Notes under the pieces: generated by a model
The model's database searches: none
The model's input: only the letters and a program-made list of their open reading frames with translations
What the model was told of the DNA's origin: nothing
Made by a program: the position numbers and the translations under genes
Shown: positions 8,077-51,763 of the stretch, one piece after another
Numbering within the stretch: the first letter of the stretch is position 1
Layout: every line of letters begins with the position of its first letter
DNA from: Botryllus schlosseri
Lineage: Eukaryota
Reading direction: 5' to 3'
Assembly: GCA_051294905.1 (NCBI GenBank)
Contig: CM119371.1
Location: 37,450,001 to 37,514,000, forward strand
Length of the DNA stretch: 64,000 nt

Positions 8077-8235
8077 TACGAATTGAGTATTTTTGGTTGT
8101 CTGTCTTCATGCTCAATATATCTCGTTCCCTGTGTGGTGAGGCTGTGATTTGTTATTGTTGATCAGTTTCATTGATATCTTCGAAGCAACGCAATGAAAA
8201 GACGCCATCGAATAATATACTGATATATAGATATA

Positions 8236-8292
8236 CCCGAATAAATTTGGTTGACACTCGTCAGGGGTATTCTTCAGCAACTATTAGAGAAT
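8236..8292 (-). mobile_element. Degenerate fragment of the hammerhead-bearing Penelope-like family in the ANKLE2 3' region
   Basis: The reverse complement reads TAGTTGCTGAAGAATACCCCTGACGAGTGTCAACCAAATTTATTCGGG, matching 40937-40984 with the GAAA core mutated. Confidence 0.7.
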
Positions 8293-8312: not shown

Positions 8313-10580
<2,268 letters not shown>

Positions 10581-10967
10581 CTATAATCTGATAAATTTTC
10601 TTGAAAATAAATATTGTAATGAGAAAGCTGTATTATTTGATCGATAGTTTATCCGGTTTCTCATTAAATGCAACTCAAATCAAAATGTATTAATAATTTA
10701 TTCATATATTTCGACAGATAGGTTATCTGGCTTCTGTTACAAAACCCACTCACACTTTCAAGCCAGGAGAATCTTCGTTGTAAAACCTCCACATTGTAGA
10801 GCTAGCGCCCATACTGGAAGAACCGCCAGACTTTGCACGAGTTGTGGGAGTGGCGCGTCGCTGACGAATTGTGGTCCCGCCACCAGGCCTGAAACATGAC
10901 ATTTACTTCATTCATCTCATTTCATGCTGGTGACGTCATATTGCGAGACAGGATTGTTGATATACAG

Positions 10968-12212
10968 CAGGGGTCGGCAACCTTTTGCTAGTCGCGGGCC
11001 AAATTTCGGGTGTACAACTTTTTGGCGGGCCGGATTTTTTCTTAGTACTATATTTTACGCTCACTTTGGTATATTATACTACATTGCTGCAATCTCAATC
11101 ATACCAATCAGAAGACACATGTATTTACACTTCAACAACACAGAATAATTGTGACAATTGACGCAGCTTGCTTTGTGAAAGGTTTTCAGCTTCTGGTAAC
11201 AAGTCAGATGAAACAAGAATCAGAGCCTATTCAAAATGGATAAATTTCGTATCACAGTTACAAATGTAGTGTTGGTACTAGGTTTTCTCTCCTCCAGTAT
11301 AGGAAAGTGAGCATAATTTTCTTTGTACTGTTGACATTTCCAGAGTCACAGATTTGTTTTGAATGCGCCTCAACATCTCATGTATTTAGTTGTTTTCCTC
11401 CTGAAGTTGCAAATTCAATTTGTTCAGATGTGACGTTAAATGTACCAGGAAAGCAAGATGAGATACCCAGTTTCCATTACAAGATCATGAGTCGGCGATA
11501 TTTGTGTTTTCGAGGAAAGTTGCTATTTCATTTCTCAGTTCATACACTCGTGTAAGCATAGCTGCTCGACTTAATGAGCGAAAATGACAGATATAGGCCT
11601 GCATGACATCGCCATATTGATTCTCTGCTTCTAGTGACATCTGGCGTAACTGATTCAGTTAATGAGACAAAAAATCATTTTAACAGTTTTCACCATTGTG
11701 GCCAAAACACTATTCAGGTTTTTTGTCTTGGCACACAATGCCTTCTGGAAAATCAAACTATAGATAGCCTAACTAACATACGGAGGCTAGTTATCTATAA
11801 TTGAACAGTTAGCGATTCCGTCATTGCGTCTGAGATGTTCCAAGCGTTTTTGAAGCAAAGGAAGAACACCTTTATTGTTACGCCCCGTTAGAGTGGTAAA
11901 CCCTTTAAAAAGTATTTAGCACCTTCGGTTGCGAGATACACCCGATTGATAAGCACTGATCCAGTCTAGTCTATCTCCATCTCCTACTTCAACCACTTTC
12001 GTTTTATGGCATAACAATAGACTAATACGATGTAGGCTACTGTTATATGGTAGCCATGCCGCATTTTTTTCATGCAGTGCTGCACTGCAGATTGAAACTC
12101 ATTAGGAAACGGCGGGCCGCATTCTTGTGATAACTAATTATTATGTCGCGGGCCGGACGGTTTCGCTTGGCGGGCCGGATCCGGCCTACGGGCCGTAGGT
12201 TGCCGACCCTTG
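10968..12212. mobile_element. hAT non-autonomous element (Charlie/SPIN-like termini)
   Basis: TIRs CAGGGGTCGGCAACC and GGTTGCCGACCCTTG. Subterminal GCGGGCCG repeats. Perfect 8-bp TSD ATATACAG at 10960-10967 and 12213-12220. Confidence 0.9.
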
Positions 12213-12245
12213 ATATACAGTGTTCTTTCCAATTCTCTACTAGTT

Positions 12246-12289
12246 GCTGACGATTACCCCTGACGAGTGTCAGCCGAAACTATTCGGGT
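12246..12289 (+). ncRNA. Minimal type I hammerhead ribozyme motif (copy with one stem III substitution)
   Basis: GCTGACG-ATT-ACCC-CTGACGA-G-TGTCAGC-C-GAAA-CTAT-TC-GGGT. The core is intact but the stem III palindrome is broken (ACTATT). Confidence 0.6.
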
Positions 12290-14377
12290 TCGTTTCAATA
12301 TGATTATACTATTCAATTGTATATCGAAGTTCTGTACCTCCAAGAAGCTCTTTTGGGAGCTATAGTAGACTACTTGAAGACTAATGAATCGGTCAGGTAT
12401 TCGAATTTGCCCAGGCTCTAATTATGAAGTCATTATAGTATGAAAGATATGGAAAAATCCTTTTATGCTATGACAAAAAAACATCATACTGGTTCTATAT
12501 CGCAATAAAGATAATTTGGTGCCTGTCTTTGCAAACATACCTATTTTTTGCACATTGTTTTGTAAGAGTGCTGTGGGTTGATCAGGACTTCACAGATATA
12601 TATGCCATTTCCATTACGTGGGTAGCTTTGTATTACATGTTCTTGATGCTGCGATACAACCAATCGAGGTTTCATGACTTCCACAGTGGAAAATGCTATC
12701 GAAAGCATAATTTTCGTTGATAAATCAACACAGTGGCAGAGAGCGTATAATTCTAGTACTCCAAAAAGAAACATCTTAGAGATCACAGTATCCTGCTCTA
12801 GTCAAGACTAAATTATCGTTACACTCACTTTGACGTGCGTCCTGGCGACCTGCCGCCGACGTTGGTTGCGCTTGACGATGGAAGAGGCTGAAAATGATGA
12901 GAAAATTTGTTGACATTCAAAAATGTGACACAAGATTTTGGATGTTTGTTGAAAACACTGATTGGTGGCAGACTTGGACAGTTAGATAATTATAGTTGCC
13001 TGTTTCGAGTAATTAGAGCAGAATATCGGAAATCTAATTCTAGTGTAATTTATTGAATGACTCCTTGCTCTAATTTTAATTTTCTGAGATTACTACAGGA
13101 GAAATGTATTGTACGAAACAGGCCAAGATTGCTGTGCAGACATTTGCCGATCTCATGCTTATCCTGTATGAAATCGATGTCCTCTGCACTACGTTTTATT
13201 TTTTATTGATTTTTTATTAAATTATTTCAACTAGGAATCATCGCTGCTCACCTGATATATCAGGCAAAACGTACCGAGATTTCAGTAGGGATGCTTATGA
13301 GAATGAAATTTGTATATGAGCAGAACATAATTCAATTTTCAGGTTTTCAACTACTACAGAACTACTCACTTCAATTCAATATCCACAATTAAGGAACTAC
13401 TTCTCACCAAATTAAATAATTCTGGTCGTCAAATCAGACTCATTAGAGCGAAATCACGGTAATCTATAATTCCAAAGTAATTTGTTAAATGATTATTTGC
13501 TTCTATCCTCCCAGGCTGGGAGGCTGCAGGGAGTCCCAGAAATTCTGATCTAATTTTTAGTTTTCCTCAATATACTACACCTACTCGTCATTGATTCACC
13601 AGTATGTGCCGTAATACGCATCATTTCATAGGACTGTAATCACTATATATCCAGAGTGTGAAAAACAGAAAATTTTTAGAACTTCAGAATCGGATTCCTG
13701 CGCTCACCTTTCTTCATTATTTTTTATCAAATTACTTCAACTTGGAAAATCGTCGCTGCTCACCTGATATATCAGGCAAAACGTACTGAGATTTCAGTAG
13801 GGGCCATCCACCATTATTTGGTAAATATGTGTAGCCTACATAGCGTCATTTTCCGGCTATACATTTGGTGATAAATACACAGAAACGGTTAAAGCATGAA
13901 TTTGCTTCGATGTGATGTACACACTTCCACCATCCACACTCACTTTTCGGCAGGAAAACTTGAAAAATATCACTCACCATTATTGTAGTATGCTATCTCC
14001 CGGTGCTTTACACGAAGTTTACTGGCAAAGTGACGCGTCAACGTCACCAGGTCCACAACTGTGCGCGTTCGGGCGTGACGGCTGTCTTGCCACATTTTGC
14101 TTTTTGACGCCGACCGACCGGTTTTCGCCGAATAACAGAATCGATCACCGGAATCGTTCAGTTCAGTGCGTGGCTCTTGCTCGACGACGGTATCATTGAC
14201 GGGAACATACCGTTCCTTTTGCTTTGTTTCGTTTTTGTAGCGTTTGCGTGCATGCCAAGGATTTGTAAAACATCATCATACTCAAGCGTAAAAATTCTGC
14301 TTTCGTTTCAATTGCCCGCAAAAATGTCATCTATTTGACTGCAGCAATGGCATACAGCGGACGCCTTACCATTACAC

Positions 14378-14937: not shown

Positions 14938-15374
14938 ATTACACTATATCGCCGTAGCACTAAACAACAATATGTTGTTCATATGCAATTGATTAATGTA
15001 CTGATATTGAAATAAACCCGTCAATTTCTACCTGATAATGATCGTCAGCATCTAGTAGAGAAAAGTACCAAGCTATCATGAAAATGTTATCGGATCGGAT
15101 TCGTCTGATACCGACGCTAAGAATATATTCTCACGAAATGGACTTACTTCTTCTCAGAATAGCATCAAGAATTCAAGATATATTAGTTTATGGGTGCGAT
15201 GGAGACGATTTTTCGCTGATTCGGTCGAGGGCAAAATGGGCGCTTATCAGATATATCGTTAGATGGCACGCTTGACTCAAGCAATTGCGTGGCGAAGTCC
15301 ACGGTTATTCTATCGAATGTAAGTTATTCAGAATTCAAACCAGTACATCCACCTGATCGGTGGTGATGCAGAGT

Positions 15375-21880: not shown

Positions 21881-22670
21881 TAAGTCTAAATTGGGCGAGC
21901 AGCGCATGTATGCCGTCCAAACAGTTGGCGATATTCTCCGATAGTAATAGCGCACTGATGTCAATCAAAAACAATGGCAATTCGAATAGTTTAATTGAAA
22001 CTATTATCTGACTTTGCAGAGACTTGGCAACAAATGGAGTACAAGTGACGTTTATTGGATTCCCGCTCACACAGGAATACGTGGCAATGAAAGGGCGGAT
22101 AAACTCGCAAAACTGGCCGCTAGCACACCTGGATCCAATGACGTAAACGGAACGATTCTGTCACTTCCCGAAATGAAGTCATACACCAATGGATTATGTG
22201 CTGAGAAGTGGATGTCGGAATTAAATGGCATCGATCGAGACTCTGCGTACCTTCGTATGCACGCACCGTTCTCATTCATTCCCCGCCCACGAAATTTGTC
22301 GCGGAGGGAATCAGCAATTATATTGCGATTACAAACTGGACACTCTAAATTGAACTCGCACCTCCAACGCATGGGTTGTCACGACAGTGGTCTCTGCGAA
22401 ACGTGCAGCGTACCGGAAACTCTCGAACATTTTCTACTGACGTGTCCTCGATACGATCACCAGAGACAATATTTAAAAAACGTAGCCGAACGTAGCAGTG
22501 TGAGCTTTACGTTGGAATGTCTGTTACCTGATCCGCACATGGTTATTGCGATCGTAGAATTTGTTATTTTGTGTAGGCATATCTGATTCAACTATAGCTC
22601 CCTCAGGCCTGGTGCACAAGACCCTGGTAGTCGAGCACCATAAAACCCCTTATACATATACATATATATA
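21881..22670 (+). mobile_element. 5'-truncated non-LTR retrotransposon (I/Nimb-like): RNase H, CCHC knuckle and 3' UTR
   Basis: Translation gives QLAIFSDSNSALMSI (then one stop and one frameshift), WIPAHTGIRGNERADKLAKLAA, ILRLQTGHSKLNSHL and CETCSVPETLEHFLLTC, with the stop at 22586. 3' stem-loop at 22610-22640 and a TACA/TA-rich tail. Confidence 0.9.
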
Positions 22671-23864
22671 TAAACCATAAACTTCAGAGCTAAAGAAAAA
22701 TTAAAAGGCGAACATAACAAGATGAGACCAGAATCCATGTAAGCGGATACCGGTGATTAGCGTGAAAGTCAACCCTCAATAAGATGACATAATGGACTTT
22801 TTGGATACTGTTACAATATACTGAAAGCGGAGAGCAATGCGTCGCGGAAGATGTTTCGAAACAACTGAGAATAACGGAAAAGTCAACCGTGCGAGCTCCA
22901 AGCCATTTTGGCGACTGGCATCGATGAGCTGACATAGCGGACACAGTGATAAGTTTTTGGCGCATTTTTCTGCATTTTTCACTCGACGCAGATTAAACAG
23001 TGAAATTACAGATGTATGGCAAACCTAGTATATGATGGTGATCAAAGTATAGTCATTTTCTTAGTAACTTAAAGTAAAGCTGTTAATTTCTAATCAGTGA
23101 CAAGTAAAAGGGAATGGGAGAAGTAGGCCTATATAGCAACGTTTGAGAAACACATTCGACTGTGCGGCATCAGTTGAATCAGACATTTTACACAAATGCT
23201 AGGGTATTTGTCACGACAGAGAGATCGGCCTCATTTTGACTGCGTCATCGAAGTTATTTGACGATCAGGATGCGATAGGACCTTTTGGCAGAGGGTAATC
23301 TCGTTTTCAATACCGGGTCATTTCGCCAATCCGTCTCGTAATACGAGCGCCTGGCCTGTAAATCGCGGATATCTGTTTCACGTACAAGACTTATTTGGTC
23401 TCGGCACGGGGATCGAGCCCACGGCATACCGATCAACACAACGTATGACCTGTCATTACGTTATCTCTACGGAACACTGCACAACAATATTTTTCGATGT
23501 GTGGAATTTATTAATATTGAAATAAACACGTCAATTTCGTGCTGATACAATCGTCAGCGACTAGTAGAGAATTAGATAAAGTACGAGCTATCATGAAAAT
23601 TTTATCGGATATTATCATAATTCGTCTGCTACCATTTCTCACGAAATGAACTAACTTCTTCTCAGAATAACATCACGATATATTACTTTATGGGTGCGAG
23701 GGAGACGATCTTTTACTGATTCGGTCGGCGGTAAAATGGGCGATCATCAGATATCGCTAGATGGCGCGCTGGAATCAAACAATTGCGTGGCAACGTCCAG
23801 GGTTAGTCAGAATTCAAAATTTAAACCGGTACAATACATCCACCTGATCGGTGGAGGTGCAGAG

Positions 23865-29180: not shown

Positions 29181-32100
29181 TGATTAATGTGTAATTATTA
29201 TCAATGACAAATGAATGTACGCTGAATTTCCTTTCCAAGGACCTGATAATTGTTGATCAGTTGATCAGTTTTTTAGCTTCCGCTTATAAGGACTACAAAT
29301 AGGCTTTAGAAGAACAAAACTTGAACATTACAGCAAACAATATGTTACACAGCATTGTTCGATTCGTGCTGATGTGATCAAATCCCGATTGCTATTGCAT
29401 ACAGAGGTGATAAAAGTAGTCAGCGTCTTTACTCAAGTAGATGCGGAAGTAGCGATGTATATTTCGTATATTTCCACTCATGTACAAGTATAAGTAGCAA
29501 TTTCCAAGACATGACAAAGATAATGTAAAATTACACACATACCAACCCCACCAGCCGCCTATCAACGTATATTATGTAAAATATTGCTAAGGAATGACAA
29601 ATTTCTAACGTATTAAAATTCTTGACATCTGACGTACAAATCTGGATCACGAATCTGCACATGAACAGAATCCTGTAATCCTGAGCTTAATTTTTGGAAG
29701 AATCTTGGTTTTCAATATCAGTCGCCGTGAGTGATCTTAATGAGATAAACGGTCATGGACTGATGAATGTTTGTGGAATATTGTGCGACCAACTGCCGTT
29801 GATCCCTATACCCGTAAACGCCTTTCTTAGTTCGGTGTTCGCCAATTCATTACGAACAACATTTTGTCCACCCAAGCATCAATAGCATTATGTTTGCAAA
29901 GCGAAATCGAAATTTTCTGGGTGGTGACTCTAATTTCGTGGAATCACTTTTAAGCAGAGGTAGCATTCGACCTCTTGTCTTCTTTTTTAAAGTTTTCGTT
30001 AAATGTATGTGAAAATTGGATTGGGATATTGGAAATCAGCACTCAAATAACGGTCCGATGTATCTTCTGGAAGATGAGACGGAAAGAACACATTTTTTCT
30101 ATAGTCAACCAACGAAAAATCTCACGGCAAGTGGGTATTTCCGGAGTCGAGTCGTAACGACCATCTTTTTTGTAGTCAACCAACAAAAAACTCGAAACAT
30201 ATTCACCAATTTTCCGGATTTTACTCCGGTATTGTAAGTCTGAAAATTTTGAAATAGTGTCCTTGTCGGATTCCCAAAATATGGTAACCATATTTTTAGT
30301 ATAAGCTCAATTTATAAAACTCATAACATTAAAATCGCGCTGGAGGATATAGTATAACACTGGATAGATTTAAGTGATTCGCGCTATTTTAGTCAACGAG
30401 TATCATCGCGGAATACACGGGATAGGTTTATGTCACGTTTCCTAGAATGTTTAGTCGTATCAAATCTGGTACAGCGGAGTGAAATGAGATATGACGCAAT
30501 TGGACATTGAAACCGTGGTATTTTGCACATAACATCTCAAAGATAATATAATAGTTATATCATGTAGTCCAATACAACTTGAGAGAATGAACAACCCCGA
30601 CATAATTCGAATTACGCGGACATAAACAGCGAGCAGGCATTCAACATTCCGGAACACGAAGCAACGCGGCCTACGAGAGCGAGGGTTGATATCACTTTCG
30701 ACTTCAAGTTCATGAAGTGTCTCGAAGCGCTATTCTTGATGTATGTTGTTGGATTAAGTGAAGTCACGAGTAAGTTAAGGAATACAATAAGGATGTAATT
30801 GTAAATACATCAGAACGCTCGTGATTACCGCACTGTCATTCAATAACAACAGCGTGGGCAGTGACTAATCTACTCTTCATTTCCCGAGTAGGCCTACTCA
30901 AGCAGGTTATTGCATACTTATTCAATGACCTTAGATAATTTATAATTCTACGCAACAGTTTTCATATTTTAAGCAAAACTGGACTGGGAATAGTTACTTT
31001 TTATTTACTTGGAAATCGGTCTTACGAGTGGTACTTTACTCGAAATATACGATGAGTTATAAGTAGGGCTAAAATATTTTGGAATCGGGAAGGGAGGACA
31101 CATTTTCAAAATTTTCAGATTTACAATTGTGGGGTAGAATTTGGATACAATGGTTAATTTTTCACGACTTTGTGATTGGTTGACTGAGAAAAGGTCTACT
31201 TTCCGGCTAAACTCCGGAAATAAGGTTTTTCTTTCACGCTTCACACCTGTTGATTTAAAAAACGATGGTCACTTTCGTTCGGACCACGAATTTCCTATTT
31301 AGCGTCGTTCATGCCCATTTTTGGCTCTAAAAGCTGTAAAAGCGGACGAATTTCAAAAAGGTGAACACTTAGGCGTCGTCGGAGTACATTTTCAAAAACC
31401 TGAAAAAGCAGGACAAATCCTCCTAAAGGAGGACGTATGGTAACCGAATTATAAGGCTGGTAACCACGTCATTGGTCTGTTTAAGACAGTGGTCGGAAGC
31501 CCTTTTCGTCGAAGGAGCCATATTAACCAATATTCTCAGTTGTCAATGACAATCCATTGTGACGCCACAGTTAACGATTCATGACGTCATAGCTAGAATA
31601 AAAAATAATAAAAACAATAAAAACATGTCTTAAGCAAGCGCCATGTTTTAAACATGTTTGTTTTAAAGTGATTTTTGTTCTAAATGCAACCCTATGTGTG
31701 ACAGTGTTGTGATAGCGATACAAGTTTGTTTCCAGTCGTATGGTATCACATCTGCAGGTAATACTGGGCTATACCGCCAGAGGCGTGAAACAAGTATACT
31801 CGAATTGTAAGTTACTAATTCAAAAAGCTTGGTTTTAACACGAGATTATTGTTTAGATACCGATGTTGATGATGATACTATTGGCCGAGGTATGCTCGGA
31901 ATCGCGTGCTCGATTGCTGGTTTCAGCGCGCTAATCAGAAACTATATAATGTTCTGCGTACTTGGCTTCAAAATAACTCACTATTGGTGATCAATATTTC
32001 TCATTTTCACTCACGGACTCGACCCAGCAACACCGTGACCCGTGAATCTGCGAAACGTTGTTAAATTCAGAGCATCACGGTTGGATTTGATCAAAATTCT

Positions 32101-33986
32101 GTTAATGCTGAATGCAGAGGTGGCGATGTAATCACCATCGCTACTCGGACAGAGGTAAAAGTAGAAGTAAAGACTGTACACGATTTCAAATATAGAAGTA
32201 CCGACACCAGAACATTTAAACTCTAGCGGTTAATCGCGAGACTCTAATTACGAAATTGCATAATGCGACCTACGCAAACTACCAATCACGGACACTACAA
32301 ATAGGCGCAGTCTTCTAAAATATCAGTTACCGTGATATATGGTGCTGTAAAGCGAACCTCGAGTGGTCGTACGATATGCCAGCCGAAGAAGTTTCTAGCG
32401 GCTTGATTGTTTGATTGATTTTTTCGTGAGTTAATTATACCTATAGTTTGTTTGTTTGTTTTGGGGTATTTATGGGGTTTGTCGACTACTATGGTCATAT
32501 ATACCAGGCCGATATTCTTCTTATTTTCCGTAACTGCCAACTTATAGGACGGCCCACCTCTTTCGTAAGACAGCGCTGACGCGGATGAGGTGGCGAGGAG
32601 GAGCCTAGAAGCCTAGCCTACCTATAGTGTGTGTTGGTACATTAGGCTGCGCTTTGTAATCCAGTTCGTGTTTGAGCGCTCTGTTCGACAGGTATATTTC
32701 TTGGAGGAAGCTCCAAATTGAATGTTTTGGAAGACTAGAGCGGGATGAGACGGCATCGTATATTCAAACTCTGACGGTGTGAGGTGTTGGAGTAACTTAT
32801 CGCCTAAACATTGATTTATTCGTTTGCAAGGCGCTGATGTGTTTTGGAAATTTTGTTGATAATATTCAACATATGGAATATTTCACGTGGTTTTCATGAC
32901 AATTACACTTTTAAAAGCGATGCAAACACATATGACAAAATTTCGACTTTTCGAAATTCAAAGTGTAAAATACAGGTTGTTTTGCCGATGAACGATTCAG
33001 GTAGAAGTATGGAAGTAGTCTCAAATAAGTAATAGGAAAAGCTTACTCAAGTAGTCCGAATATTTATTTTCAATAACAACGAAATACTAATAATAACATC
33101 TCAAACTACATAGGCTAGATTACCGTATCGACGTATCTATTCCGTGCAACTATCACGTTAGCCATTATCAATACATTTGATCTCTTCGCAGAATCGTAAG
33201 ATTCTGCACCGTCTATAATTCACACGAGCAGAAAATGGGCGTATTGCCTAACGGAAAATATAGAACATGATTACATAAAAACGAGCGAGCAATTTTAAAG
33301 TTATGCGACATGCGATTGTTACAGCGTAGAGCACTCGGAATGTTATTGGTGGAAATAATCGAGAATACTCTGCGTCATATAACTGGGTGCAGGTTATACA
33401 AACAATTTGCAGCACCGTATTGTCTTTTTATATGACACGCGTACGCAATTTAATTTGTTATGTACGGGTTACAACAATCACAATGATTAAGTATATAGAT
33501 ATGATCTTGGATGTGGTCAAATTTTGTTTTGGAGGTAATCTTAGTCTACTTTTAAGCAGTTCGCTATAACACTTAACGTCGTTGTGACGGAGGATAAGTC
33601 AAAAGCATAGGACTTGATAATACGCCAGTTCTGAGTTATATGTTTTAAATTTATAGTTCCGATGAAAATTTGGTGTTTTATTTCTATCATCAAAGGAAAA
33701 GCGTTCAACCTCTCACATTGCGCAATTTAGAATAAAATCTAATAATATTTGATGGTTGAGATGTACTACTATAGGTTACGATAATGCCAACACCTAGGAA
33801 TACGGATCATTAGATATCATTGTATTTCTGAAAATATTTACAGATTTTTCGATGAAACATGATTCGACTCTCAGCCATCTCCAATAAGATTGGCCTCTAG
33901 AAAATAATTTCGTTTCCTAACATCGCAAAGTAAATGTCGGATAAATTCAAATCCCCGTTCGATAGTAAGCTCTCAACCGTCGCAAT

Positions 33987-34377
33987 TAGGGTTGCATTTA
34001 AAACATAAATCAATTCAAAACATGCTTCTTTATTGTTTTTTTTTTTGTTATTTTTAAAGCAATGACGTCACGTACATTGAAGTGTGACGTCATACTGGAT
34101 TGACGTTGACAACTGAAAATATGGGGTAAATATGCGTCCTTTGACGAAATATCTACGTAATATAGCTGATGAACCGACTTATTTGAAGGTTCCGACCATA
34201 CCATATCGCATACGTCGGCTATATCGGGTGGTAATTATGCAAGGGCTCGTACAACATGTTTTTTGGAAAGCATTTACCAAATTATGGCATAATTTTACAA
34301 CTTGAAAAAAACACAATTTTTGAAACATGTTTTAAACGAAGTGTTTTAAACAAGCATTCGTTTTAAATGGAACCCTA
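33987..34377. mobile_element. hAT MITE (TAGGGTTGCATT family)
   Basis: TIRs TAGGGTTGCATTTAAAAC and GTTTTAAATGGAACCCTA. TSD GTCGCAAT on both sides (right copy offset by TA). The paralogous site at about 47483 has a single GTCGCAAT, i.e. an empty site. Confidence 0.85.
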
Positions 34378-35482
34378 TAGTCGCAATTGCACGGTTAGTT
34401 AGAACAAGTCGGCGCTATAGTCGACGAAATCTTGGAAGGAATTCACTCAAAAAATATTTTCAGTGTCTCGCCTTCCGGGCGTATAACACTCGTAATGAAA
34501 TACCTTCTGTGACTTGTATCGGGTGTCACTAACTACTCGAAGTCGTGGTGTTAAGACTGGGCGCTACGAGAATAGTGTGTGGCTGTAGCATGCCCGTATC
34601 AACTACCGTTAATTCACCGGTTTCATCGCGGATAAGGAGTTGAATGATGTATAGATGTCAAATTTTAACGAATATCATCTTGGGTGTTCAATCACAGTTG
34701 TGTGGATTGTTACTATCTACTTCGTGAAGTTAGTACGTGATGCAGTTGTACATCGGTTACGGTTAAACGATTCTGTAGTAATGTTCCCGCCTTAATGCTG
34801 GTACCAGACTGGAATAACTAGATAGTTCATGTTGTTTATTTAGACCATTTTCAGTCTGTAATTTAATTGTCATTTAATTTGTGAAATGGTTCAATGCTCC
34901 CATTGAAATTCTAATCTAATTTGGGGTTTTCCTGAAAATGTTAACGTTACCAACCATGCTCGGTGTACTGACACTTGTCATGCTCATGCTTGCGAGAAGG
35001 AACCCGCATTTGATATGGACTGAATTTGATTTTCGTTGGATTTGATCTAATTCTGTATAAAATTCAATTTCCAAGTTTTCGCGAATTAAATCATTCTAAT
35101 TGTAATCAAAATTGAAATTGAGTTAAAAAATAAACTATGACCAGGGTTTGATAGCGGGCATGTATGAAGGCCCGAGTTCTGCGTGAAGGCGTGCGAATGC
35201 CGATGTGCCTCAGTTTGTTCACAAGTTGAAAGTCAAAAGCACAGGAAGTTGTCATGGAGCGTAATATTCACACCTCAGGCCTAGAATCCCGAAAGTTGAT
35301 GAGCCGTAGAATATTTTCGAGAGTAACGCGCATGAAAATGAAAAAGTAGATGAAATTTTATACGAAAACCCTACTGCAAAATGGTCGTAAACCTTCATCC
35401 ATCAAATTATCAAATGGCTTTCTTCGTAATCCACCTTCATGCTCATCTCAAATGACAACTGTTTTCAGCTCTGTAGGTTAAG

Positions 35483-36645
35483 ATGAAGATTTTCTTCGCC
35501 GTCTGTTTTCTCGCAGGTGAGATTGCGGTCAAATATATGTCGATCTGAAATTGAACCGCTTTATTTTCTCTCAGTCGCGAACCGGGCTTTTGGCACATCA
35601 GACGACGGCCAAACCGCCACCCGGCATGGAGTGGTAAGTTCATTGACGTCATCAGTGCAAGCCCGGGCTCCAACATCTGTTACATCACAGATCACGCCAC
35701 AAGGACAAGACCCAGACACACTTGGACAAGTCATAGGCTCACATTCTGTCACCCACCATCAATCCCAACCTGTCATACAATATCAACCCCCATCAATTCC
35801 ATACCGAGATTATCCAGTCCTGCCGATGGTTGACCCTAACCGCTATCCCCGCACTCCGACCAATAGCTTCATAGACACGTACATCAAGTACATGATTTAT
35901 ATGGAGCTGTTGAAACTGAGTGAGTTTATTTCGTGAAGTCAGTCGTTGTGCCAACTTTCCGGCCAAAACACTCTTGTTTTGTTGCAGTTCGTCCGACCAC
36001 GACCGTTGCGGCCACCGTATCGCCCACGACAGTCGTGAGTATATGTAGCTATGGTCGCTAACTAGTAGAGTTGTTAAGTTAGCAAGCTAAGTTAGTAAGC
36101 TACCAAGTAAAGCAATTTTATTTGCATGCAATCAGGACCCGTGTACTTCATGGAAAGAGGTTGATAGCTGCAGGTATTACGTCTTCTACGGAAAGATGAG
36201 TTGGAACGATGCCAAAGAGGCGTGCACTCAAAAGTGCAGTTCCAAACTCGCGTCGGAATCATCGGAGCTCCAAATGGATGGGGCGACAACAAGATCCACC
36301 TTCGAGTGAGTACTCGTCTCTGTTGCTGCACCAAAAGGCTGTGTGTACGATCGTGGCATTGTTGTTGGCAGAGAAATCATGGCGCTGTTTCCCGGAGTGC
36401 CTGCTGGATCGAACGTTTGGATCGGAGCTTCTGACGCGGACAGTTCGCACACCGTCCTCAATCCCATGTGGTTGGACATGACTCCTATCACGACTGATTT
36501 GACTTCTTACGACATAAACGCTGGAATCGCAAGTTGCAGATATTACGCACCAGCCAGCTCACCCTCAACCGGCATTCGGTACAACGTCTGCAGCACCACT
36601 TCGGCGGCAACGCCTTCTTATTACCTTTGTGAATTTTGTCCCTAA
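35483..36645 (+). CDS. Secreted protein with Pro/Thr-rich region and C-terminal C-type lectin-like domain (paralog 1, 270 aa, 6 exons)
   Basis: Exons 35483-35516, 35575-35633, 35691-35919, 35988-36034, 36136-36305 and 36372-36645, all GT-AG, 813 nt in frame. Signal-peptide-like MKIFFAVCFLAVANRAFG. CTLD motifs CRYYVFYGKMSWNDAKEAC, VWIGASD and YYLCEFCP. Confidence 0.88.
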
Positions 36646-38449: not shown

Positions 38450-38556
38450 GGTAATTCTCTACTAGTTGCGGATGATTACCCCTAACGAGTGTCAGCCGAA
38501 AATATTCAGGTTCATTTCAGTATGATTACGCTGTTCAAGTATACCTCCAAGATGCT
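38450..38556 (+). mobile_element. Degenerate copy of the hammerhead-bearing Penelope-like family
   Basis: AATTCTCTACTAGTTGCGGATGATTACCCCTAACGAGTGTCAGCCGAAAATATTCAGGTT...TACCTCCAAGATGCT. The core CTGACGA is mutated to CTAACGA. Confidence 0.75.
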
Positions 38557-39914: not shown

Positions 39915-40780
39915 CTCTATTATCATTAGGGCGATTTTTTACTTGAAAAACCTAATATTATGCACTAAACAATGGAAATTTTGCTTTTTTTTACTTTAAA
40001 AACTGCAATTTTGACAACATGTTGCCAGCATATATGTAAATTAGGCTTTTTTTCGCAAATTATGTTAGAATTGCACTACTTTTCGTAATTTCTGATTGGA
40101 ACTCTGTGTCTTTACGAAGTAGCCTGGCCCCGAAAAACACTATTTGAATAAATAAAATCAAAATTTTACTTTAAAAAACTTTATTTTAACGATGTCTCAG
40201 ACGGCACTGGCCGTCCCCGGTTAGTGAGCAGCTGTCTTATCGTAAAGTTTAGTAGCTCGCACAAATGAATGTCTGCCGCTAGGAAGGCCTCAACCAACTT
40301 GCTCTTGAAGTCAGCCTTTGAACTTTTGCGTTGGTAGTATTCGATACTCTAAGCAGACGTTCATTTTTTACTGACGATTGGTGCCTTTCTACTCTAAAAC
40401 GCCTGTCACAGCTCAAGAATTGACTGCACGAGAATCAAAACAGTTTGGAATTTGGGTGCCTGCAAAACTCCTGCATAGAAATGGAAACTTATTTGTTTTG
40501 TGAGTATGACAATTTTGGCATTTCAAAAAGCAAAACCGAAGCAAGAACCGCACAATACCCACAATTGCCGTGAAATCAGTTTGAATGTTGCGGTAAGTTG
40601 AGCATAACACCTTATCCACTTATTAGTTTCATTTGACCGTTCATAATTCACATAGAGCAGAGAATGAGCCTTCTATAATGGCGGGCCTGTAAAATAGCCT
40701 ACAATCTGTAAAATTTGAACAGCTTCTTTGAGGTACAGAACTTCAATATACAATTGAATAGCATATTCATATTAAAATGA

Positions 40781-40824
40781 ACCCGAATATTTTCGGCTGA
40801 CACTCGTCAGGGGTAATCGTCAGC
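40781..40824 (-). ncRNA. Minimal type I hammerhead ribozyme motif (left arm)
   Basis: Exact reverse complement of 40942-40985. Confidence 0.68.
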
Positions 40825-40941
40825 AACTAGTAGAGAATTCGAAAGAACAGCGTATATCAACAATCGTAAATCATGCTGGTGACGTCATATTTTGTGTTAC
40901 GATTGTTGATATACGCTGTTCTTTCGAATTCTCTACTAGTT

Positions 40942-40985
40942 GCTGACGATTACCCCTGACGAGTGTCAGCCGAAAATATTCGGGT
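40942..40985 (+). ncRNA. Minimal type I hammerhead ribozyme motif (right arm)
   Basis: Stem I ACCC (40952-40955) with GGGT (40982-40985); core CTGACGA (40956-40962); G40963-C40971 closing loop TGTCAGC; GAAA (40972-40975); palindromic AATATT stem III; UUC triplet with predicted cleavage after 40981. Confidence 0.68.
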
Positions 40986-41282
40986 TCATTTTAATATGAA
41001 TATGCTATTCAATCTGTAAAATGTAAAATGATAAGTTCACTAAAAGTACAGACGTCAACGATACCAAACAAGTGCAAATTGCAGAAAATTTTTAACTTTG
41101 CAGACAATTCTGACAAGTTTTTGACATAACGCCACAATTTTGACAAAATTTAGAATTTTTTGCTCTGTCAAAAAGAGCAATGCTAATGATCGCATTGTTT
41201 GCGGTCAATTCATTTGTGAGATAACAATGAAGGAGCAGTAAAACGCAATAACATTAAGCTCATTTACATGCCCGCATTGGTA

Positions 41283-41663
41283 GGTTCCATACTATTACCG
41301 AGAATGCTAGTACCGAGATAGACATTACCGAAAATGCTATTACCGAGAACGGACATTACCAAGAATGGACCTTACCGAGAACGGACATTACCGAGAATGG
41401 ACATAACCGGGAATGTCCAATGCCAAGAATCTAGCTGAATGTAACGGACGTTGTCGAGAAATTTATACCTGAGAATCGATACCGAATGTGACAACGACGT
41501 GCTGCACACACACGACCTGTTCATATGCGTAACATGCCTGTATTTCATGTATCTGTCCAGTGTCCATTCTCGGTAATGTCCCTTCTCGGTAAGGTCCTTT
41601 CGCGGTGTTGTCCTTCTCGGCATTAGCATTCTCGGTAATAGCATACTCGGTATTGACCGGACA
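41283..41663. mobile_element. Foldback-type MITE with tandem ~16-17 bp subterminal repeats
   Basis: (CATTACCGAGAATGGA)-like repeats at 41290-41430 and their inverse (TTCTCGGTAATG) at 41563-41652. No clear TSD. Confidence 0.6.
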
Positions 41664-42591: not shown

Positions 42592-43252
42592 CTTATTATT
42601 ATTATTATTTTTGTATTTAAAAACGATTTTAGTGACGCATATAACAACTACGGTCTTTTGCGTCACGACATAACAGTTGCTGATCGAATCGATATTGCGA
42701 TAAGCAAATACAGTCAACTAAGCATTTAGTACTGTCTCTTTGTCTTCGCAATGAATTCCCACAGCAAAGGTGATATATAATCAGTAGCTATTATATTTTC
42801 CATTGTGAAGGGTACTCTCAAGTCCAGTACGGCAGCTCTAAAGTGGCATCTTTCGTTGGCGTGCTTCACACACTCGATAATAACGTGCTCTGCAGTTTCT
42901 TCAACATGGTATGTGGTACAATCAGGGGTATCGGAGCATCCAATTTTGCTAAGATGGGAGTTGAGACGACAGTGTCCGGTCCGTAATCTGAAAATGGTGG
43001 TTTCGGCACGGCGTGGCGTGGTTAAAGTAGGTGGTAGTTTTGTGTATATGTCAGGGCAGAATTGCTTGAAATGTGCTCCAGACGCGGTTTCGATGAAACG
43101 TCGGTTCCAGTCTTGCCTACAGTGACTTAAAATCAATCAGTTGGCCTCGCTAGAAGTAAGATCTACACTTTGGTTCAGCGAAGTCATGGGCCGCAGCCTC
43201 TTTCGCAAGTCGGTCAGCGACGTCACGTATCTGAACTGGATGAAACGGAGAG
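42592..43252 (-). mobile_element. 5'-truncated non-LTR retrotransposon (I/Nimb-like), second family
   Basis: The minus strand gives DVADRLAKEAA (RNase H C-terminus), IFRLRTGHCRLNSHL and CTTYHVEETAEHVIIEC (degenerate CCHC), with the stop at 42726. 3' stem-loop at 42632-42666 and a (TAA)n tail. Possible TSD TCTTATTATTA at 42591 and 43253. Confidence 0.88.
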
Positions 43253-44958: not shown

Positions 44959-47900
44959 TCTATAAGACTAAAAAGATTGAAATGCCCAGTATTCTAATTC
45001 TAATCGAAGTTGTGAATCTTTCCCCGCTTTAATTCTAATTCTAATCTAATATATGAAATGTGTCTTTGTTCTAATTCTAATTCTAATCTAATATATGAAA
45101 TGTGTCTTTGTTCTAATTTTAATTCTAGTCCGATTTCTGGTTTTCCTGAAATGCCGAAGGAGCCGTATGGTGCGAACCGAGCAAAGCTTACTGCATAAGC
45201 ATTTGCTATTCTCATGCTTATCAGAATGGGCTCTAATTTGATATAAACTGGACTTCATTCAATGTCCAAGTTTTCACGAGTTCGGTTATGTTATTCAAAT
45301 TCGGAAAAAAAGTTGCGTATTTATTATTATAATTCCAGTCTAATTTGAATGAAAAAATGTGAAGCTATAACTTTAATTCTAATATAACTCGGAAAAGCTG
45401 AAATTACTCCAGTCAATCAAGGCTGGTCACGTGTTCGGTGTCGCAGTGTTGTGACAGCGATACAAGTTTATTTCCAATCGTGCGGTATTACATGTACGGG
45501 TAATATAATACCGCCAGAGGCGTGGAACAAGTAGTTGGATTGTAAGTTACTAGTTCTAAATGCTTGGCTTCAACATGTTTTGATAGTGATGTTGATGATG
45601 GCACGATTGGCCGAAGTATGCCCGGAATCGCGTGCTTGATTGCTGGTTTCAGCGCGCTTATCAGAAACTTTGTAATGTTCTGCGTACTTGGCTTCAAAAT
45701 AACTCACTACTGTTGATCAATATTTTTCGTTTCCACTCACGGACTCGACCCAGCAATTTCGTGACCCGTGAATCTGCGAAACGTTGTTGAATTCGGAGCA
45801 TCACGGTCGGATTTGATCAAAATTCTGTTTATGCTGAATGCAGAGGCGGCAATGCAATCACCATCGCTACTCGGGTAGAGGTAGAAGTAGAAGTAAGGAC
45901 TGTACACGATTTCGCATATAGAAGTACCGATATCAAAACATTTAAACTCTAGCGGTTAATCGGGAGTTTCTTATTATGAAATTACATAATGCGACCTACG
46001 CAAACTACCCACGGACACTACAAATAGGCGCAGTCTTCTAAAATATTAGTTACCGTGATATATGGTGTTGTTAAGCGAACCTCGAGTGGTCGTACGATAT
46101 GCGAGCCGAAGAAGTTTCAAGCGGCTTGATTGATTTTTCATGAGGTAATTATACCTATAGTGTTTGTTGGTACGTTGGGCTGTGCTTTGTAATCCAGTTC
46201 GTTTTTGAGTGCTCTGTTCGACAGTTACATTTCTTGGAGGACGCTCCGAATTAAATGTTTTCGAAGACTAGTGCGAGATGAAACGGCATCGTATTCAAAC
46301 TCTCACGATGTGAGGTGCTGGAGTAATTTATTGCCGAGACTTTGATTTATCCGTTTGCTAGGCGCTGATATTTTTTTTTTGGAATTTTGTTGGTAAAATT
46401 CCATATATGGTATATTTCACGTGGATTTCATGACAATTACACTCGTAAAAGCGATGCAAACACATAGGACAAAACTACTTTCAACTTTTCGTAATTCAAA
46501 GCATAAAATACAAGTCGTTTGGCCAATGAACGGTTCAGGTAGAAGTACGGGAGTAGTCTCATACGTGTAATAGGAAAAACCTTACTTAAGTAGTCCGAAT
46601 AATTCTTTTCAATAACAACGAAGTACTCAAACTATACATAGGCCATATTATAGTATCGACATATCTATTCCGTGCGACTAACATGTTAGCCTTTATCAGT
46701 ACATTTGATCTGTTCGAAGAATCATAAGATTCTGCGCCGTCTATAATTCACACGAGCAGAAAATGGGCGTATTGCGTAACGAAGAATATAGAACATGATT
46801 ACATAAACACGAGCGAGCAATTTACGCGATATGCGACTGTGATAGCATATAGAGAATTCGGAGTGTTATTGGTGGTAATAACCGAACGTAGTCTGCGTCA
46901 TAACTTGGTGTTGGTTACAAACAATTTGCAGCACCGCATTGTTTCTTTCTGTGTCACTCGAACGCAATTTATTATGTAATGTACAGGTTACAGCAATCAC
47001 AATTATTAGGTATATATAAATTATATTGAATGTGGTAAAATTATGTTTTAAAGGTAATCTGAGTCAGTCTGCTATAACACTTGCACCGCAGTGACGGAGG
47101 ATAAATCAAAAATATAGGACTTGATATTACGGCAGTTCTAAACTATGCGTCTGAAATTCATAATTCGGTTTAGAATTTGGAGTTTTATTTCTCTAATCAG
47201 AGGAAAAGCATTCAGCCTTTCACATTGCGCAATTTTGAATAATATTTATATATATGTGATGGTTGAGAAGCACCAGTATAGCTTACGCTGATGCCAATTC
47301 CTCGGAATACGGACCTTTAGATATCATTGTATTTCTGAAAATACTTGCAGATTTACCGATGAAACATGATTCGACTCTCAGCCGTCTCTCTCAAGAGCGG
47401 CCTCTAGAAAATAATTTCGTTTCACGAGATCGCAAAGTGAATCTCGTCTAAATTTAAAGCTTTGTTCGATAGTAATCTAACCGTCGCAATTGTACGGATA
47501 GATAGCGCAAGTCGGCGGAACAAAGCGACGCAGGTACCTGTCGCCGCTAGTCGACGAAATCTTGGGGAGAATTCTCGCAATAACATATTTTCAGAGTCTC
47601 GCCTTGAGGGCGTATCAAAATTGTCATGAAATACCTTCTGTGACTTGTATCGTGTGTCACTCAGCAGGCGACGTCGCGGCGTTAAGACAGGGCACTGCGA
47701 GCAGAGTGCGTGACGGGAGCGCGAGAGTATCGATCACCCTAATTTAGCGGTTCCGTCACGGCTTTTGGCGTTTTCGCGAGCTTACGCGTCAGATCGCGTA
47801 GACGAGACGTGTCTAATAGAACGGACCTCGCAATGGATATGATAGAATTTATGTAGAGGTCCAATTTAAACGAATATCATCTCGGTTGCCCTTTCCGCAA

Positions 47901-48782
47901 TATTGCGGATTGTTGAACCGTAGTTTGTGAAGTCACTACGCGATTCACTTGTCAATCGATTACTATTAAACGATTCTATCGAAATTATGTTTTCATCTTG
48001 AAGCTGGTACGAGAATGGGACACGTAAATAGTTATAGTTGTCTATTTAGACCAATTTGTAATTGTAATTGTAATGTAATTATAATTTACTTTAAAATGCC
48101 TCTGGGCTCTCATTGTAATTCTAATCTAATTGCGGTTTTCCCGAAAATGCTAGTGTGATAGAGCACAGTGCGATACAGTGTGATACGAGCCAAGCTCGGT
48201 GTACAGACATTTGTCCTTCTCGCGCTTTCGAGAATGAACTCGAATTTGATATGCACTGAATTTGATTTTTGTCGTATTTCTTTCTAATACGAAATAAAAT
48301 TCAATTTCCAAGTTTTTTCGCATTAAATTATTCTATTTGTAATCGAATTTGTATAAACATCCTTCACCCGTCACTAAAATTCTAATCTAGTTGGGTGAAG
48401 CCTGAAATTTTCTAGCGTTCCAACTCTGACCAGGGTTGGATAGCTCACAGGTAACAGACCCAGCGTTGTGCGTGAAGGCGTGCGAATGCCGATTACTGCT
48501 CCAGTTTGTTCAGGAGTTTAAAGTAAGAAAGACAAAAAGTTGTCACGGTTGTAATTTGCGCACCTGTGGCTCTGAAGGCCGAAAATCGATAAACCACACA
48601 ATGTTTGTCAAAGGGACACGCCTCATTATTGGTTGTCACATGAAAACATTAGGAATTGTATACGCGAATCTTACTACAAAATGATCGTACATCCTCATCA
48701 ACCATGCCATCAAATGCGTATTTTCTAAATCCACCTACATGCTCTTATCAAATGCCAACTGTTTTCAGCTCCGTAGTTTAAG

Positions 48783-51763
48783 ATGAAGATTTTAGTCGCC
48801 GTCTGTTTTCTCGCAGGTGAGATTGCGTTCGAATATATGTCGATCTGAAATTGTAACCGTTTTATGTTCTCTCAGTCGCGAACCGGGCTTTTGGCTCTGG
48901 TGACGGATCGGATGAGGATGGTCCTGGCATCCGGCACGGAGCGGTAAGTTCATTGACGTCATCAGTGCATGCCTATAGGCTCCAACTTCTGTTACATCAC
49001 AGATCACGCCACAAGGACAACCCCAACCCCAACCTGTCATACAATATCCTCAACCAATGCCATACCCAGGTTACCCACCCCTACCGAATCCCAACCCCCG
49101 CCCTCCGTCCAGAAGCGTCATAGATACGTACATTCAGTACATGGTCTATAAGGAGCTGTTGAAACTGAGTGAGTTTTTTTATATCAGACGTGGCGCCAAC
49201 TTTCCCGCCACAACACTCTTGCTCTTTTGCAGTTCGTCCGACCACGACCACTGCAGCCACCGCTGCGCCTCCGACAGTCGTGAGTATTTGTAGTTAAAAT
49301 AACAAACTAGCAGGCTATTTGTACCATTTGAAGCTGGGGTTGGGAAAAGTCCGGTTGAATATTTCAGTGATACGGGAAGTAAGCTTTCAATCGAGTCATG
49401 ATATTAAGAATGTGCCTTTATATCGGTAATTTAATGCAGAGTTGCAAGCCATAAGAGTTATTTTTTTAATTTCTCGACAATGACTGTATCCTATTACTTC
49501 GTATTAATGCAGCTGCTTAATCATAGCCAGAGGTGGTGGAAGTTGTCGTCGTTGGTGTTCAATGTTCATGTAGAAATAGCGTCATAAACTTCTACTGAAA
49601 TACAATTGGAAGTAGCGTATTCAAAGTATTCAAAAAGTAAGTATTATAGCCGTAGTGCTGATTAAAAAAATGAATACCGCCAAGTGTTTTAAAGCATAAT
49701 AGTCTTAAAGCATAACGAGTTGAGGAAGTTCCGAAACACTTGAATACTTGTGCTTGAGGTGGTGAAATAAGGCGTTGCTAACACTGAAGCAAGTGTAGAA
49801 TGTAACTGCCTGGATAAATCGTATCATATTATCAGTAAGTAAGTAGACGAAGAGGAATTCTAGGCTTGATTTGTCCATAAACACTCTAGCAAATAGTGCA
49901 CATAACCTACTCGAGTGCTTCGAAAGAGTAAAAGTACTCTTTTGCCAGCCAGTGGTATAGCTTCCATTAAGATGTTACCTGTTTATGCTCAGCGTGATGC
50001 CACCGAGTCAGGCTTCAAGGCTTCTACGATGAGAAGAAATGACTGATACTAAATATTTGACATTGATAATATAACTGCTAGCGACAAAAAAAAATACGTT
50101 TTAGTTACTCTCTCCATACTAAAATCGATTCACAGTTCAAAAGTATCAGATTCAAATATTAGAGATCTCATATCCGATTTTGAGGCCAGTTTTAAAATAA
50201 TCAAAAATCAGGTCCGAATACCGCGCAAATCAGCAAATTTGTCTTTTCGACCGAAATCTAAATTCATCGTCATTAACTGTACCCTACGAACTGATACGAC
50301 GCATGTGACTGCACGGCTGGGAATCCAGACACAGCAAATGACTTGTGGCGCGCCAAATCTGATAAAACATGTATCAATCGTAAGCTACCGTTGCACTGAT
50401 TTCGAAAGCAAAATTCCAATATGGTCAGGCCACTACCGAAAAATTGTTCCAAAAAATTGCGTACTGATTGTGACGCCATTCGTGTGTTCGAGTCATTGTG
50501 TCCAGGATTGTTATACAATTCGTTGTCACAGGACCCGTGCACCCAGTGGAAAAAGGTTGGCACCTGCAGTTATTATGTCTTCTACGGGAAGTGGACTTGG
50601 AACCAAGCCAAAGACGCGTGCGCCGCGCGGTGCAGCTCCGAACTAGCCCATGAAGCATCGGCAATCAAAGCGACGGACGCTACTACGAAAACTACTTTCG
50701 CGTGAGTACGCCACTCTGTCTCTCTCTCAGTTCACCAAGCGACAGCGTGTACGATCGTGACAGAGGAGGCGACCAGATTAATATCATTATTATTAATAAA
50801 GTTTTTAAAGTGGCGCGTATCGCCTGTTTAGGGCTTGTGCGCCACGACCGTACATATCCTAAAGTCCAGTGTCTTTGCGTTGGCAATGAGGACGACTTTC
50901 ACTTCCACGTGCACTCCCACTCTTCATTCTCTCTCGGTCTTGTGAATCCACTTCAGGTCTCTGGTGCCGACTTTCGAGCGAGGTTCACTCTTCTTCTGGG
51001 CTTTTTTAAGAGGCTGCGTTAACAGCGAGGTCGTTGATGAGGAGCCTAGATAAACCTCCGACACATAGAAACATGGCAGAGCCGAGACTCGAACCAGCAA
51101 CCATTGGTGTCGCGACTGCGCCAGAGGCGACCATATAATTCTAGTTGTGTATTTATACTAGATAGAACGAAATGTAGGTAATCATATTCTAATCTATTTT
51201 TTGAAATATCTTTGTTCTCTCATTTTGATTATAATCATATTCCCGTTTAAAAAAAAATGATACAGGATTACTTTATAGTGCGAGACAATCCAAGCTTATT
51301 GAACAGGCATTTCCCATTCCAATTTTTCGAAAAGGAACTCTGAATTGATATGAACTGACCTGAATTTTAGTCGCAGTTGGTGCTAGTGCTGAATTTAGTT
51401 CAACTTCGTGATTCCAATACAAGTTGGAGAAGCTTATTATATTCTAGCTGTCTCCCTCAGAACATTGCAATTCTTGTTTGCAGAAATATCGTAGGAATGT
51501 TCCCAGGCGTGCCAGCTGGAGCCAACGTTTGGATCGGCGCTTCTGACGCGGACAGCGCCCATACCGTCGCGACTGCCAAGTGGGTGGATGGCACTGATTT
51601 CACGAAACAACCGACTGATGCGACTGATTACGACACTAGCCCTGCAATCGCAGGGTGCGCATATTATGCTCCGGGATCCGCAGTAACTACCGGCATTAGG
51701 TTCAACGTCTGCACCACCACTTCTGTGAACACCCCTTCCTATTACCTTTGCGAATTCTGCTAG
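48783..51763 (+). CDS. Secreted Pro/Thr-rich C-type lectin-like protein (paralog 2, 254 aa, 6 exons)
   Basis: Exons 48783-48816, 48876-48943, 49003-49168, 49233-49279, 50532-50701 and 51484-51763, 765 nt in frame, with the same intron phases (1,0,1,0,2) as paralog 1. Motifs MKILVAVCFLAVANRAFG, DPCTQWKKVGTCSYY, VWIGASD and YYLCEFC. Confidence 0.88.
50779..51123 (-). mobile_element. tRNA-derived SINE family B in intron 5 of lectin paralog 2
   Basis: Minus strand: TGGCGCAGT...GGTTCGAGTCT (B box), TAGGCTCCTCATC body, 3' stem-loop GTGGCGC...GCGCCAC (50810-50845) and a (TAA)n tail. 13-bp TSD GAGGCGACCAGAT/GAGGCGACCATAT. Absent from the 66-nt paralogous intron. Confidence 0.85.

What the first reader, a model, noticed from the sequence alone, without database searches (positions are those of the whole stretch)
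40702..41022. Hammerhead-ribozyme retroelement: inverted repeat, two ribozymes and a 13-bp TSD
Seen: a 117-bp inverted repeat with no mismatch that I could find. Each arm contains ACCC-CTGACGA-G-TGTCAGC-C-GAAA-ATAT-TC-GGGT, a complete type I hammerhead core with a 4-bp stem I, a one-pair stem II and a palindromic AATATT stem III. One arm has an ~35-nt extra tail, and the unit is flanked by CAATCTGTAAAAT twice. Established: minimal type I hammerheads with a palindromic stem III (active as dimers), inverted pseudo-LTRs and a short 3' extension are hallmarks of Penelope-like elements, and long TSDs point to target-primed reverse transcription. Inference: what looks like a MITE is a recently inserted truncated or non-autonomous PLE, or a retrozyme-like element. 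At least six more fragments occur in the window (8236, 9572, 10923-12350, 15004, 23514, 38450).
Basis: partly seen in the sequence, partly recalled or inferred. Interest (0 to 1): 0.85.

Follow-up and report, generated by a model that had tools for sequence, protein, structure and literature searches.

The report
Truncated head-to-head Penelope retrotransposon insertion
The hairpin is a recent, shortened, head-to-head double copy of the tail end of a protein-coding Penelope-type jumping gene that is intact elsewhere in this genome, which is a known kind of insertion; its hammerhead RNA motif has a predicted knot that the published Penelope examples read here do not show.

Summary
Observation confirmed: a perfect 117-bp inverted repeat, a type I hammerhead motif in each arm (0.05 chance hits per 64 kb) and a 13-bp duplication. 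The site is single in 9 of 9 uninterrupted copies of the host repeat. The unit is not a MITE, a retrozyme or a non-autonomous family. Both arms are 5'-truncated ends of an autonomous Penelope-like element (845-aa RT + GIY-YIG ORF, 2,683-bp tandem unit, thousands of fragments). This layout, tail included, is in print, and this scan noted the family before on other DNA. Two details go further. First, 16 of 16 head-to-head pairs picked without regard to their ends have one long and one short end. Across 34 pairs the duplication is 12 bp in 22, and neither arm can be a copy of the other here. That points to priming from both target strands at two RNA sites about 38 nt apart. Second, loop II of the one-pair stem II pairs over 7 bp with the sequence 5' of stem I, and this helix covaries in related families. 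Cleavage is untested; four RNA runs showed no read pile-up.

The parts
40702..40714 (+). left copy of the 13-bp target-site duplication (last 2 bases also match the element)
40715..40869 (-). [quoted passage not shown]
40715..40752 (-). 38-nt tail, present on this arm only; codons 7-19 of the element's ORF
40781..40824 (-). hammerhead motif of the left arm with its 5' pseudoknot strand (C3 at 40810)
40870..40870 (.). head-to-head junction; one base that matches neither arm's continuation
   Evidence: read
40871..41013 (+). direct 5'-truncated Penelope end, -125 to +14/+18; ends at the short site
40942..40948 (+). 7-nt strand 5' of stem I, complementary to loop II (predicted pseudoknot)
40952..40985 (+). 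type I hammerhead: stem I 40952-55/40982-85, CUGACGA 40956-62, G10.1 40963, loop II 40964-70, C11.1 40971, GAAA 40972-75, palindrome 40975-80, predicted cut after C40981
40996..40998 (+). first ATG of the parent ORF, 14 nt after the predicted cut; only 6 codons follow in this arm
41010..41022 (+). right copy of the target-site duplication (first 4 bases also match the element)
40576..41174 (+). older dispersed repeat (about 81-83% to paralogues, 1,911 candidates) that the element interrupts
10918..12352 (+). older copy of the same end (92%), split by a 1.2-kb element with terminal inverted repeats and an 8-bp duplication
8207..8292 (-). decayed fragment (80%), GAAA lost
9573..9599 (-). tail-only fragment
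14981..15062 (-). decayed fragment
23549..23576 (-). decayed fragment
38453..38543 (+). decayed fragment (88%), core changed to CTAACGA

Best explanation
This is a dead, very young insertion made of two 5'-truncated 3' ends of an autonomous Penelope-like retrotransposon, joined head to head and likely produced by priming reverse transcription from both cut strands of the target. Shown: the parent element (RT + GIY-YIG ORF in a 2,683-bp tandem unit), the two end sites, the duplication and the single empty site in paralogues. Inferred steps: (1) a tandem source locus yields an RNA that runs through the downstream pseudo-LTR into the next ORF start. (2) The element's protein, probably as a dimer, cuts both strands of AT-rich DNA 12 nt apart. 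(3) Each free 3' end pairs by about 2 bases with the RNA, one near +16 to +20 and the other near +54 to +56, both at or beside a similar TTCAA stretch. (4) Both cDNAs stop early, here after about 140-155 nt, and are joined; fill-in makes the duplication. The hammerhead is a passenger here. In the parent it is predicted to cut as a dimer through the palindromic stem III, helped by the loop II pseudoknot, 14 nt before the start codon.
For: Parent: ORF P0002 has RVT_1 at E 1.1e-7 (above cut-off) and a weak GIY-YIG hit at E 0.019 (below cut-off); DKG, YVDD and VVY-CxCxC-YVG motifs; 961 relatives at E<=1e-20; period 2,683 bp. Youth: 100% matches to the arm on many contigs, 2,620 candidates. Site: 9 of 9 paralogues of the host repeat hold the motif once; in 7 of 9 BLAST joins left and right flanks with a 13-base overlap. 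Ends: 21 of 22 pairs long+short, and the exception is a long end split by a later insertion. 16 of 16 pairs chosen by the endonuclease protein alone are long+short. Duplication 12 bp in 22 of 34, 13 in 6, 14 in 4, 8 in 1, 16 in 1, 80% A+T; junction match 1.9 and 2.5 bases against 0.7 for shuffled pairings. The short arm reaches further 5' in 19 of 34 pairs, the long arm in 13; in those 19, as here, neither arm contains the other. Arms of a pair differ at 73 of 21,540 sites, against 1.6% between young pairs; at site +8, 0 of 29 pairs are discordant against 14.1 expected. The layout is described in PMC8557442 and PMC3846280 (passages), and two internal start sites in PMC11167929.
Against: No step of the mechanism was observed; it rests on junction geometry. 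PMC11167929 reports initiation at RNA sites not homologous to the cut DNA and no difference in start site between strands; the 2-base match found here is small. PMC3846280 prefers self-priming on an antisense template. Allele concordance fits one RNA but also two RNAs from one active source. The ribozyme's minimum-energy fold is two inactive hairpins. Four RNA runs show no pile-up of read ends, and depth of 0-3 over the 5' ORF. Several older copies share a G-to-A change in loop II with no compensating change upstream.
Confidence: 0.9

Rival explanations
1. Same element, other route to the inverted copy: one priming event, then fold-back or self-priming, with the tail made when the endonuclease resolves the intermediate.
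For: Proposed in PMC3846280 and PMC8557442 (passages). It explains why the two arms carry the same alleles.
Against: A fold-back copy must lie within the first cDNA. In 19 of 34 pairs, this one included, the short arm has extra 5' sequence and the long arm extra 3' sequence. Both outer ends show a match to the target above chance. A route through an antisense template is not excluded by this argument.
Confidence: 0.2
2. A non-autonomous, retrozyme-like family of about 300 bp that spreads as a unit through its ribozymes.
For: This copy codes for nothing; pseudo-LTR fragments are abundant in RNA reads; retrozymes are related to PLE ends (10.64898/2026.07.22.740005, abstract, introduction and part of methods read).
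Against: 5' ends range from -8 to beyond -2,000 and run into coding sequence. No second copy with this junction was among the loci fetched. No short tandem unit with a ribozyme in each repeat was seen. 67-98% of laid RNA reads run on into unrelated sequence, on both strands.
Confidence: 0.03
3. A DNA MITE or fold-back element moved by a transposase.
For: Perfect 117-bp inverted repeat, small size, flanking duplication.
Against: The repeat is not terminal on the left (38-nt tail), sizes vary from 0.3 to many kb, many copies have one arm only (28 single ends), and the arm is the end of an RT + endonuclease gene.
Confidence: 0.01

Closest known systems
Inverted-pLTR insertion units of canonical EN+ Penelope-like elements, e.g. 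Pen2a_Av of Adineta vaga (PMC3846280, passages; PMC8557442, passages)
   Same: RT + C-terminal GIY-YIG ORF of about 840 aa, partial tandems, adjacent inverted 5'-truncated copy, 30-40-nt tail at one end covering the first codons, target-site duplication, hammerhead in the pseudo-LTR.
   Different: Duplications here centre sharply on 12 bp (8-10 bp in the A. vaga cases read). The tail, called optional or often one-sided there, is one-sided in every resolved pair here.
Poseidon element PAc of Anolis carolinensis (PMC11167929, main text and start of methods read; supplements searched, no hits)
   Same: Two internal start sites that bound the tail, AT-rich targets cut on both strands, predicted dimer, hammerhead beside the start codon, no RNA ends at the cut site in RNA-seq.
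   Different: There the cut lies 26 nt after the start codon, here 14 nt before it. That paper reports no strand difference in start site and no homology; here each insertion uses each site once, with about 2 matching bases.
Minimal hammerheads of metazoan PLEs (PMC4209133, parts 1-2 of 4 of the main text and parts 1-2 of 3 of supplement file 2 read)
   Same: Type I core, short stem I, G10.1-C11.1, palindromic stem III implying dimers, opposite-strand pairs 100-700 bp apart.
   Different: Every row of its Fig. S3 alignment has helix II of 3 bp or more and most an extra base after position 9. Here helix II is one pair and loop II forms a covarying 7-bp helix with the 5' flank; 'pseudoknot' does not occur in the two supplement files searched (one file not searched).
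Pseudoknotted hammerheads (PMC3088659, passages)
   Same: [quoted passage not shown]
   Different: That tested example is described as type II and not as part of a retrotransposon; stem III here is a dimer-type palindrome.

Membership tests
EN+ Penelope-like element | single ORF with RT and C-terminal GIY-YIG endonuclease | tested here: met
   Met for the parent (P0002; the GIY-YIG Pfam score is below its cut-off, the motif is present). The window copy holds only the first codons.
EN+ Penelope-like element | cysteines between GIY and YIG (CCHH finger) and DKG motif | tested here: met
   VVYEFKCHCDCGYVG at 725, DKG at 270; definition from PMC8557442
EN+ Penelope-like element | pseudo-LTRs from partial tandems; inverted 5'-truncated copy; 30-40-nt tail at one end | tested here: met
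EN+ Penelope-like element | target-site duplication with single empty site | tested here: met
EN+ Penelope-like element | hammerhead motif in the pseudo-LTR | tested here: met
   conserved at the same place in relatives
EN+ Penelope-like element | intron in the pseudo-LTR (some members) | tested here: inconclusive
   no splice-like joint in four RNA runs, but the full element is barely covered
Penelope/Poseidon clade | no CX2-5CxxC finger in the RT-EN linker | tested here: met
   no such motif in P0002; definition
Penelope/Poseidon clade | placement in the RT phylogeny | not tested
   no named reference proteins were held; the relatives found are almost all unnamed
minimal PLE hammerhead (Cervera and De la Pena) | core CUGANGA/GAAA/UH with palindromic stem III | tested here: met
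minimal PLE hammerhead (Cervera and De la Pena) | multi-pair helix II with an extra unpaired 5' base | tested here: not met
   one pair plus a 7-nt loop in a pseudoknot against Fig. S3 rows
hammerhead ribozyme | self-cleavage after C17 | not testable with these tools
   no read-end pile-up in 4 RNA runs, a weak test
non-LTR retrozyme | short non-coding tandem units, each with a type I hammerhead | tested here: not met
   the tandem unit is 2,683 bp and coding; this copy is inverted, not tandem
MITE | symmetric terminal inverted repeats, uniform size, no coding parent of RT type | tested here: not met

The most novel reading that the evidence does not exclude
Penelope elements of this clade insert by obligate asymmetric twin priming: a dimer cuts the target with a fixed 12-nt stagger and starts one cDNA at each of two sites 38 nt apart on the same RNA, which explains both the inverted copy and the one-sided tail. 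Their hammerhead is a distinct one-pair-stem-II, pseudoknot-braced, dimer-dependent form that cuts fast just before the start codon and so makes the 5' end of the mRNA.
Probability: 0.35. Interest if true: 0.55.

Novelty: new member of a known kind. Interest (0 to 1): 0.3.

Why it matters
As an insertion it is ordinary: one of thousands of dead Penelope ends. Its value is as data on an open question, since how Penelope elements make inverted copies and tails is unresolved (PMC8557442, PMC11167929). A young, abundant family with a strict long+short rule and a 12-nt stagger gives exact predictions for the existing in vitro assay. The knotted ribozyme could explain why some PLE hammerheads, tested without their 5' flank or from other clades, look slow, and gives a simple compensatory-mutation test.

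Tried and rejected
Rfam: no match at gathering score in the window; at E<=10 only miRNA-like hairpin noise. The 823-aa ORF at 5605-8076 is not the element's protein but an ANKLE2-type LEM/ankyrin gene. No RT or endonuclease remnant of the element lies in the window beyond its first codons. No close solved structure: three weak RT hits only. A guessed 3' splice site before the ribozyme got no support. No listed holder of the locus is on record as RNA. Lunse, Weinberg and Breaker (PMC5785218, seen only as a reference) is not held; it covers PLE hammerhead variants and may already describe the knot. Searches for prior description: hammerhead + Penelope + pseudoknot + stem II or helix II, hammerhead + pseudoknot + loop II, Penelope + twin priming, Penelope-like + TPRT + tail since 2023; listings only, except the papers named as read. 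The descriptor count was faulty (0 hits) and was redone. Dropped before counts: L204 (tail-to-tail duplication), L209 (arm ran off the stretch), L212 and L213 (tandems) from the 20 regions; L014, L074, L208 and L215 from the 34 pairs. L154 is misaligned in A2 and adds mostly gaps.

Full report
Observation. The arms 40753-40869 and 40897-41013 are 117 nt and fully complementary, and CAATCTGTAAAAT flanks the unit at 40702 and 41010. Each arm holds a type I hammerhead motif. A descriptor finds it at 40956 (+), 40810 (-) and 12260 (+), plus one loose hit at 15048, against 0.05 hits per 64 kb in 200 resamples. Rfam does not detect it. The six other places named are fragments of the same sequence at about 78-95% identity.

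What it belongs to. A search of the genome with the left arm gave 2,620 candidates, of which 40 were scored, at 99-100% identity. Upstream of these copies the sequence runs into a GIY-YIG and RT reading frame, and stops at a different point in each locus. Locus L031 holds a tandem of period 2,683 bp with an open 845-aa ORF, P0002. It has an RT domain above the Pfam cut-off and a GIY-YIG hit below it, DKG, YVDD and cysteines between GIY and YIG, and no linker finger. By the definitions in PMC8557442 (passages) this is the Penelope/Poseidon type; no tree was built. A search with its endonuclease part gave 8,532 candidates, 150 scored, in subfamilies at about 99% and 90%. The window unit is the last 99 and 125 nt before the start codon plus the first 56 and 14-18 nt of the next ORF.

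The site. The flanks are an older repeat. All 9 paralogues examined carry the duplicated motif once and continue into the right flank; in 7 of 9 the two BLAST hits overlap by 13 bases. In DNA run X1, one contig aligns to 40509-40714 with 17 letters left over and another starts at 41010; 13 + 17 = 30 fits a graph branch between a filled and an empty allele. I could not see those 17 letters, and X1 may be the source of the assembly, so polymorphism is an inference.

The ends. 3' ends fall into two groups, earliest positions mostly +14 to +21 and +48 to +57. Of 22 head-to-head pairs from the first two searches, 21 had one end of each kind; the other has its tail displaced by a later insertion. 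The first search required a tail, so I took a second set by the endonuclease protein alone: of 18 opposite-strand neighbours fetched, 2 were dropped (L204, L209) and 16 of 16 were long+short, L208 read by eye. In 34 pairs the duplication is 12 bp in 22, 13-14 in 10, 8 in one and 16 in one; it is 80% A+T; and the junction matches the element by 1.9 (short) and 2.5 (long) bases against 0.7 for shuffled pairings (32 pairs). So the 13 bp here is probably a 12-nt stagger plus one chance base. The two arms of a pair share alleles (0 of 29 discordant at +8, 14.1 expected; 5 of 334 cells overall, all in L008, with eight columns being one deletion). The short arm reaches further 5' in 19 of 34 pairs, so in these neither arm can be a copy of the other. 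I infer two priming events, one from each target strand, at two RNA sites of one source. The layout is in print (PMC3846280, PMC8557442), as are two internal start sites bounding the tail and a predicted dimer (PMC11167929). I did not find the one-of-each rule or the fixed stagger stated in the passages read or the listings.

The ribozyme. Folded alone, the motif prefers two inactive hairpins, one pairing loop II with the core. Loop II (40964-40970) is also complementary over all 7 bases to 40942-40948 (duplex -9.6 against -4.7 kcal/mol for the core pairing). In 79 metagenome loci of related elements, a relaxed descriptor gave 24 distinct motifs; about 20 are this form, many from one family and its decayed copies, and 4 look like chance. 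Five other distinct families keep full pairing with different letters (L115, L118, L119, L189 with 7 of 7, L154 with 6 of 6); chance of full pairing is about 1% each, 6% for L154. On an 8-row alignment, 5 of 7 pairs change on both sides, 98% of cells pair, and 0 of 500 shuffles reach the covariation score; slid controls fall to 17-41%. The structure was derived from these sequences, and three rows are one family. Stem I and the stem III palindrome vary in step too. Against: a loop II change shared by several older copies is uncompensated. Published PLE hammerheads in PMC4209133 Fig. S3 all have helix II of 3 bp or more, while a one-pair stem II with a pseudoknot is known from a fast metagenomic hammerhead (PMC3088659). 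The paper most likely to hold this form could not be read. In relatives an ATG in the homologous frame follows the predicted cut by 3 nt (read); here by 14. A role in making the mRNA 5' end is inference; cleavage-dependent translation is reported for viral hammerheads (PMC13725137, passages).

Expression. In four RNA runs, 3-6% of each read, the pseudo-LTR is covered from many diverged copies on both strands, 67-98% of laid reads run on into other sequence, the 5' ORF has depth 0-3, and no place shows many read ends. This fits passenger transcription and a nearly silent parent in those samples; it is a weak test of cleavage. A transcript through this unit would be a 117-bp duplex, so its ribozymes are predicted inert; it could feed small-RNA pathways (untested).

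Verdict. A real, young, truncated Penelope insertion of a known layout. Earlier notes of this scan reached the same reading on other loci of this genome (consulted). Interest rests on the end rule and the knotted ribozyme, both testable and neither shown biochemically.

Noticed in passing
window 5605-8076 (+): Uninterrupted 823-aa ANKLE2-type gene (LEM, ankyrin, ANKLE2_3rd domains), with no intron in the coding region; a natural single-exon gene or a retrocopy.
   Followed up: partly
window about 10969-12201: 1.2-kb element with terminal inverted repeats and an 8-bp duplication, hAT-like by recall, inserted into an older Penelope end.
   Followed up: partly
window 41289-41655: Inverted-repeat element built of 16-nt subrepeats, right beside the finding; high copy in DNA runs.
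   Followed up: no
window 17331-17996 and 14378-14937: Long palindromic elements (94% and 82-92% arm identity).
   Followed up: no
window 21999-22586 (+) and 42726-43136 (-): Remnants of non-LTR retrotransposons (RNase H and zf-RVT weak hits).
   Followed up: no
window 31696-36051 and 45438-49296: Several-kb diverged direct duplication (70-87%).
   Followed up: no
L208 (G000:C1:7709900-7712750): A head-to-head Penelope pair inserted into the pseudo-LTR of another head-to-head pair of the same family.
   Followed up: partly
L002-L004 (G000:C17:2644288, 2660399, 2676510): Identical Penelope copy and flanks repeated every 16,111 bp, a large tandem array.
   Followed up: no
L121, L146 and related metagenome loci: Related hammerheads with U at position 3 (UUGAAGA, UUGACAA, UUGAAAA cores).
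   Followed up: no
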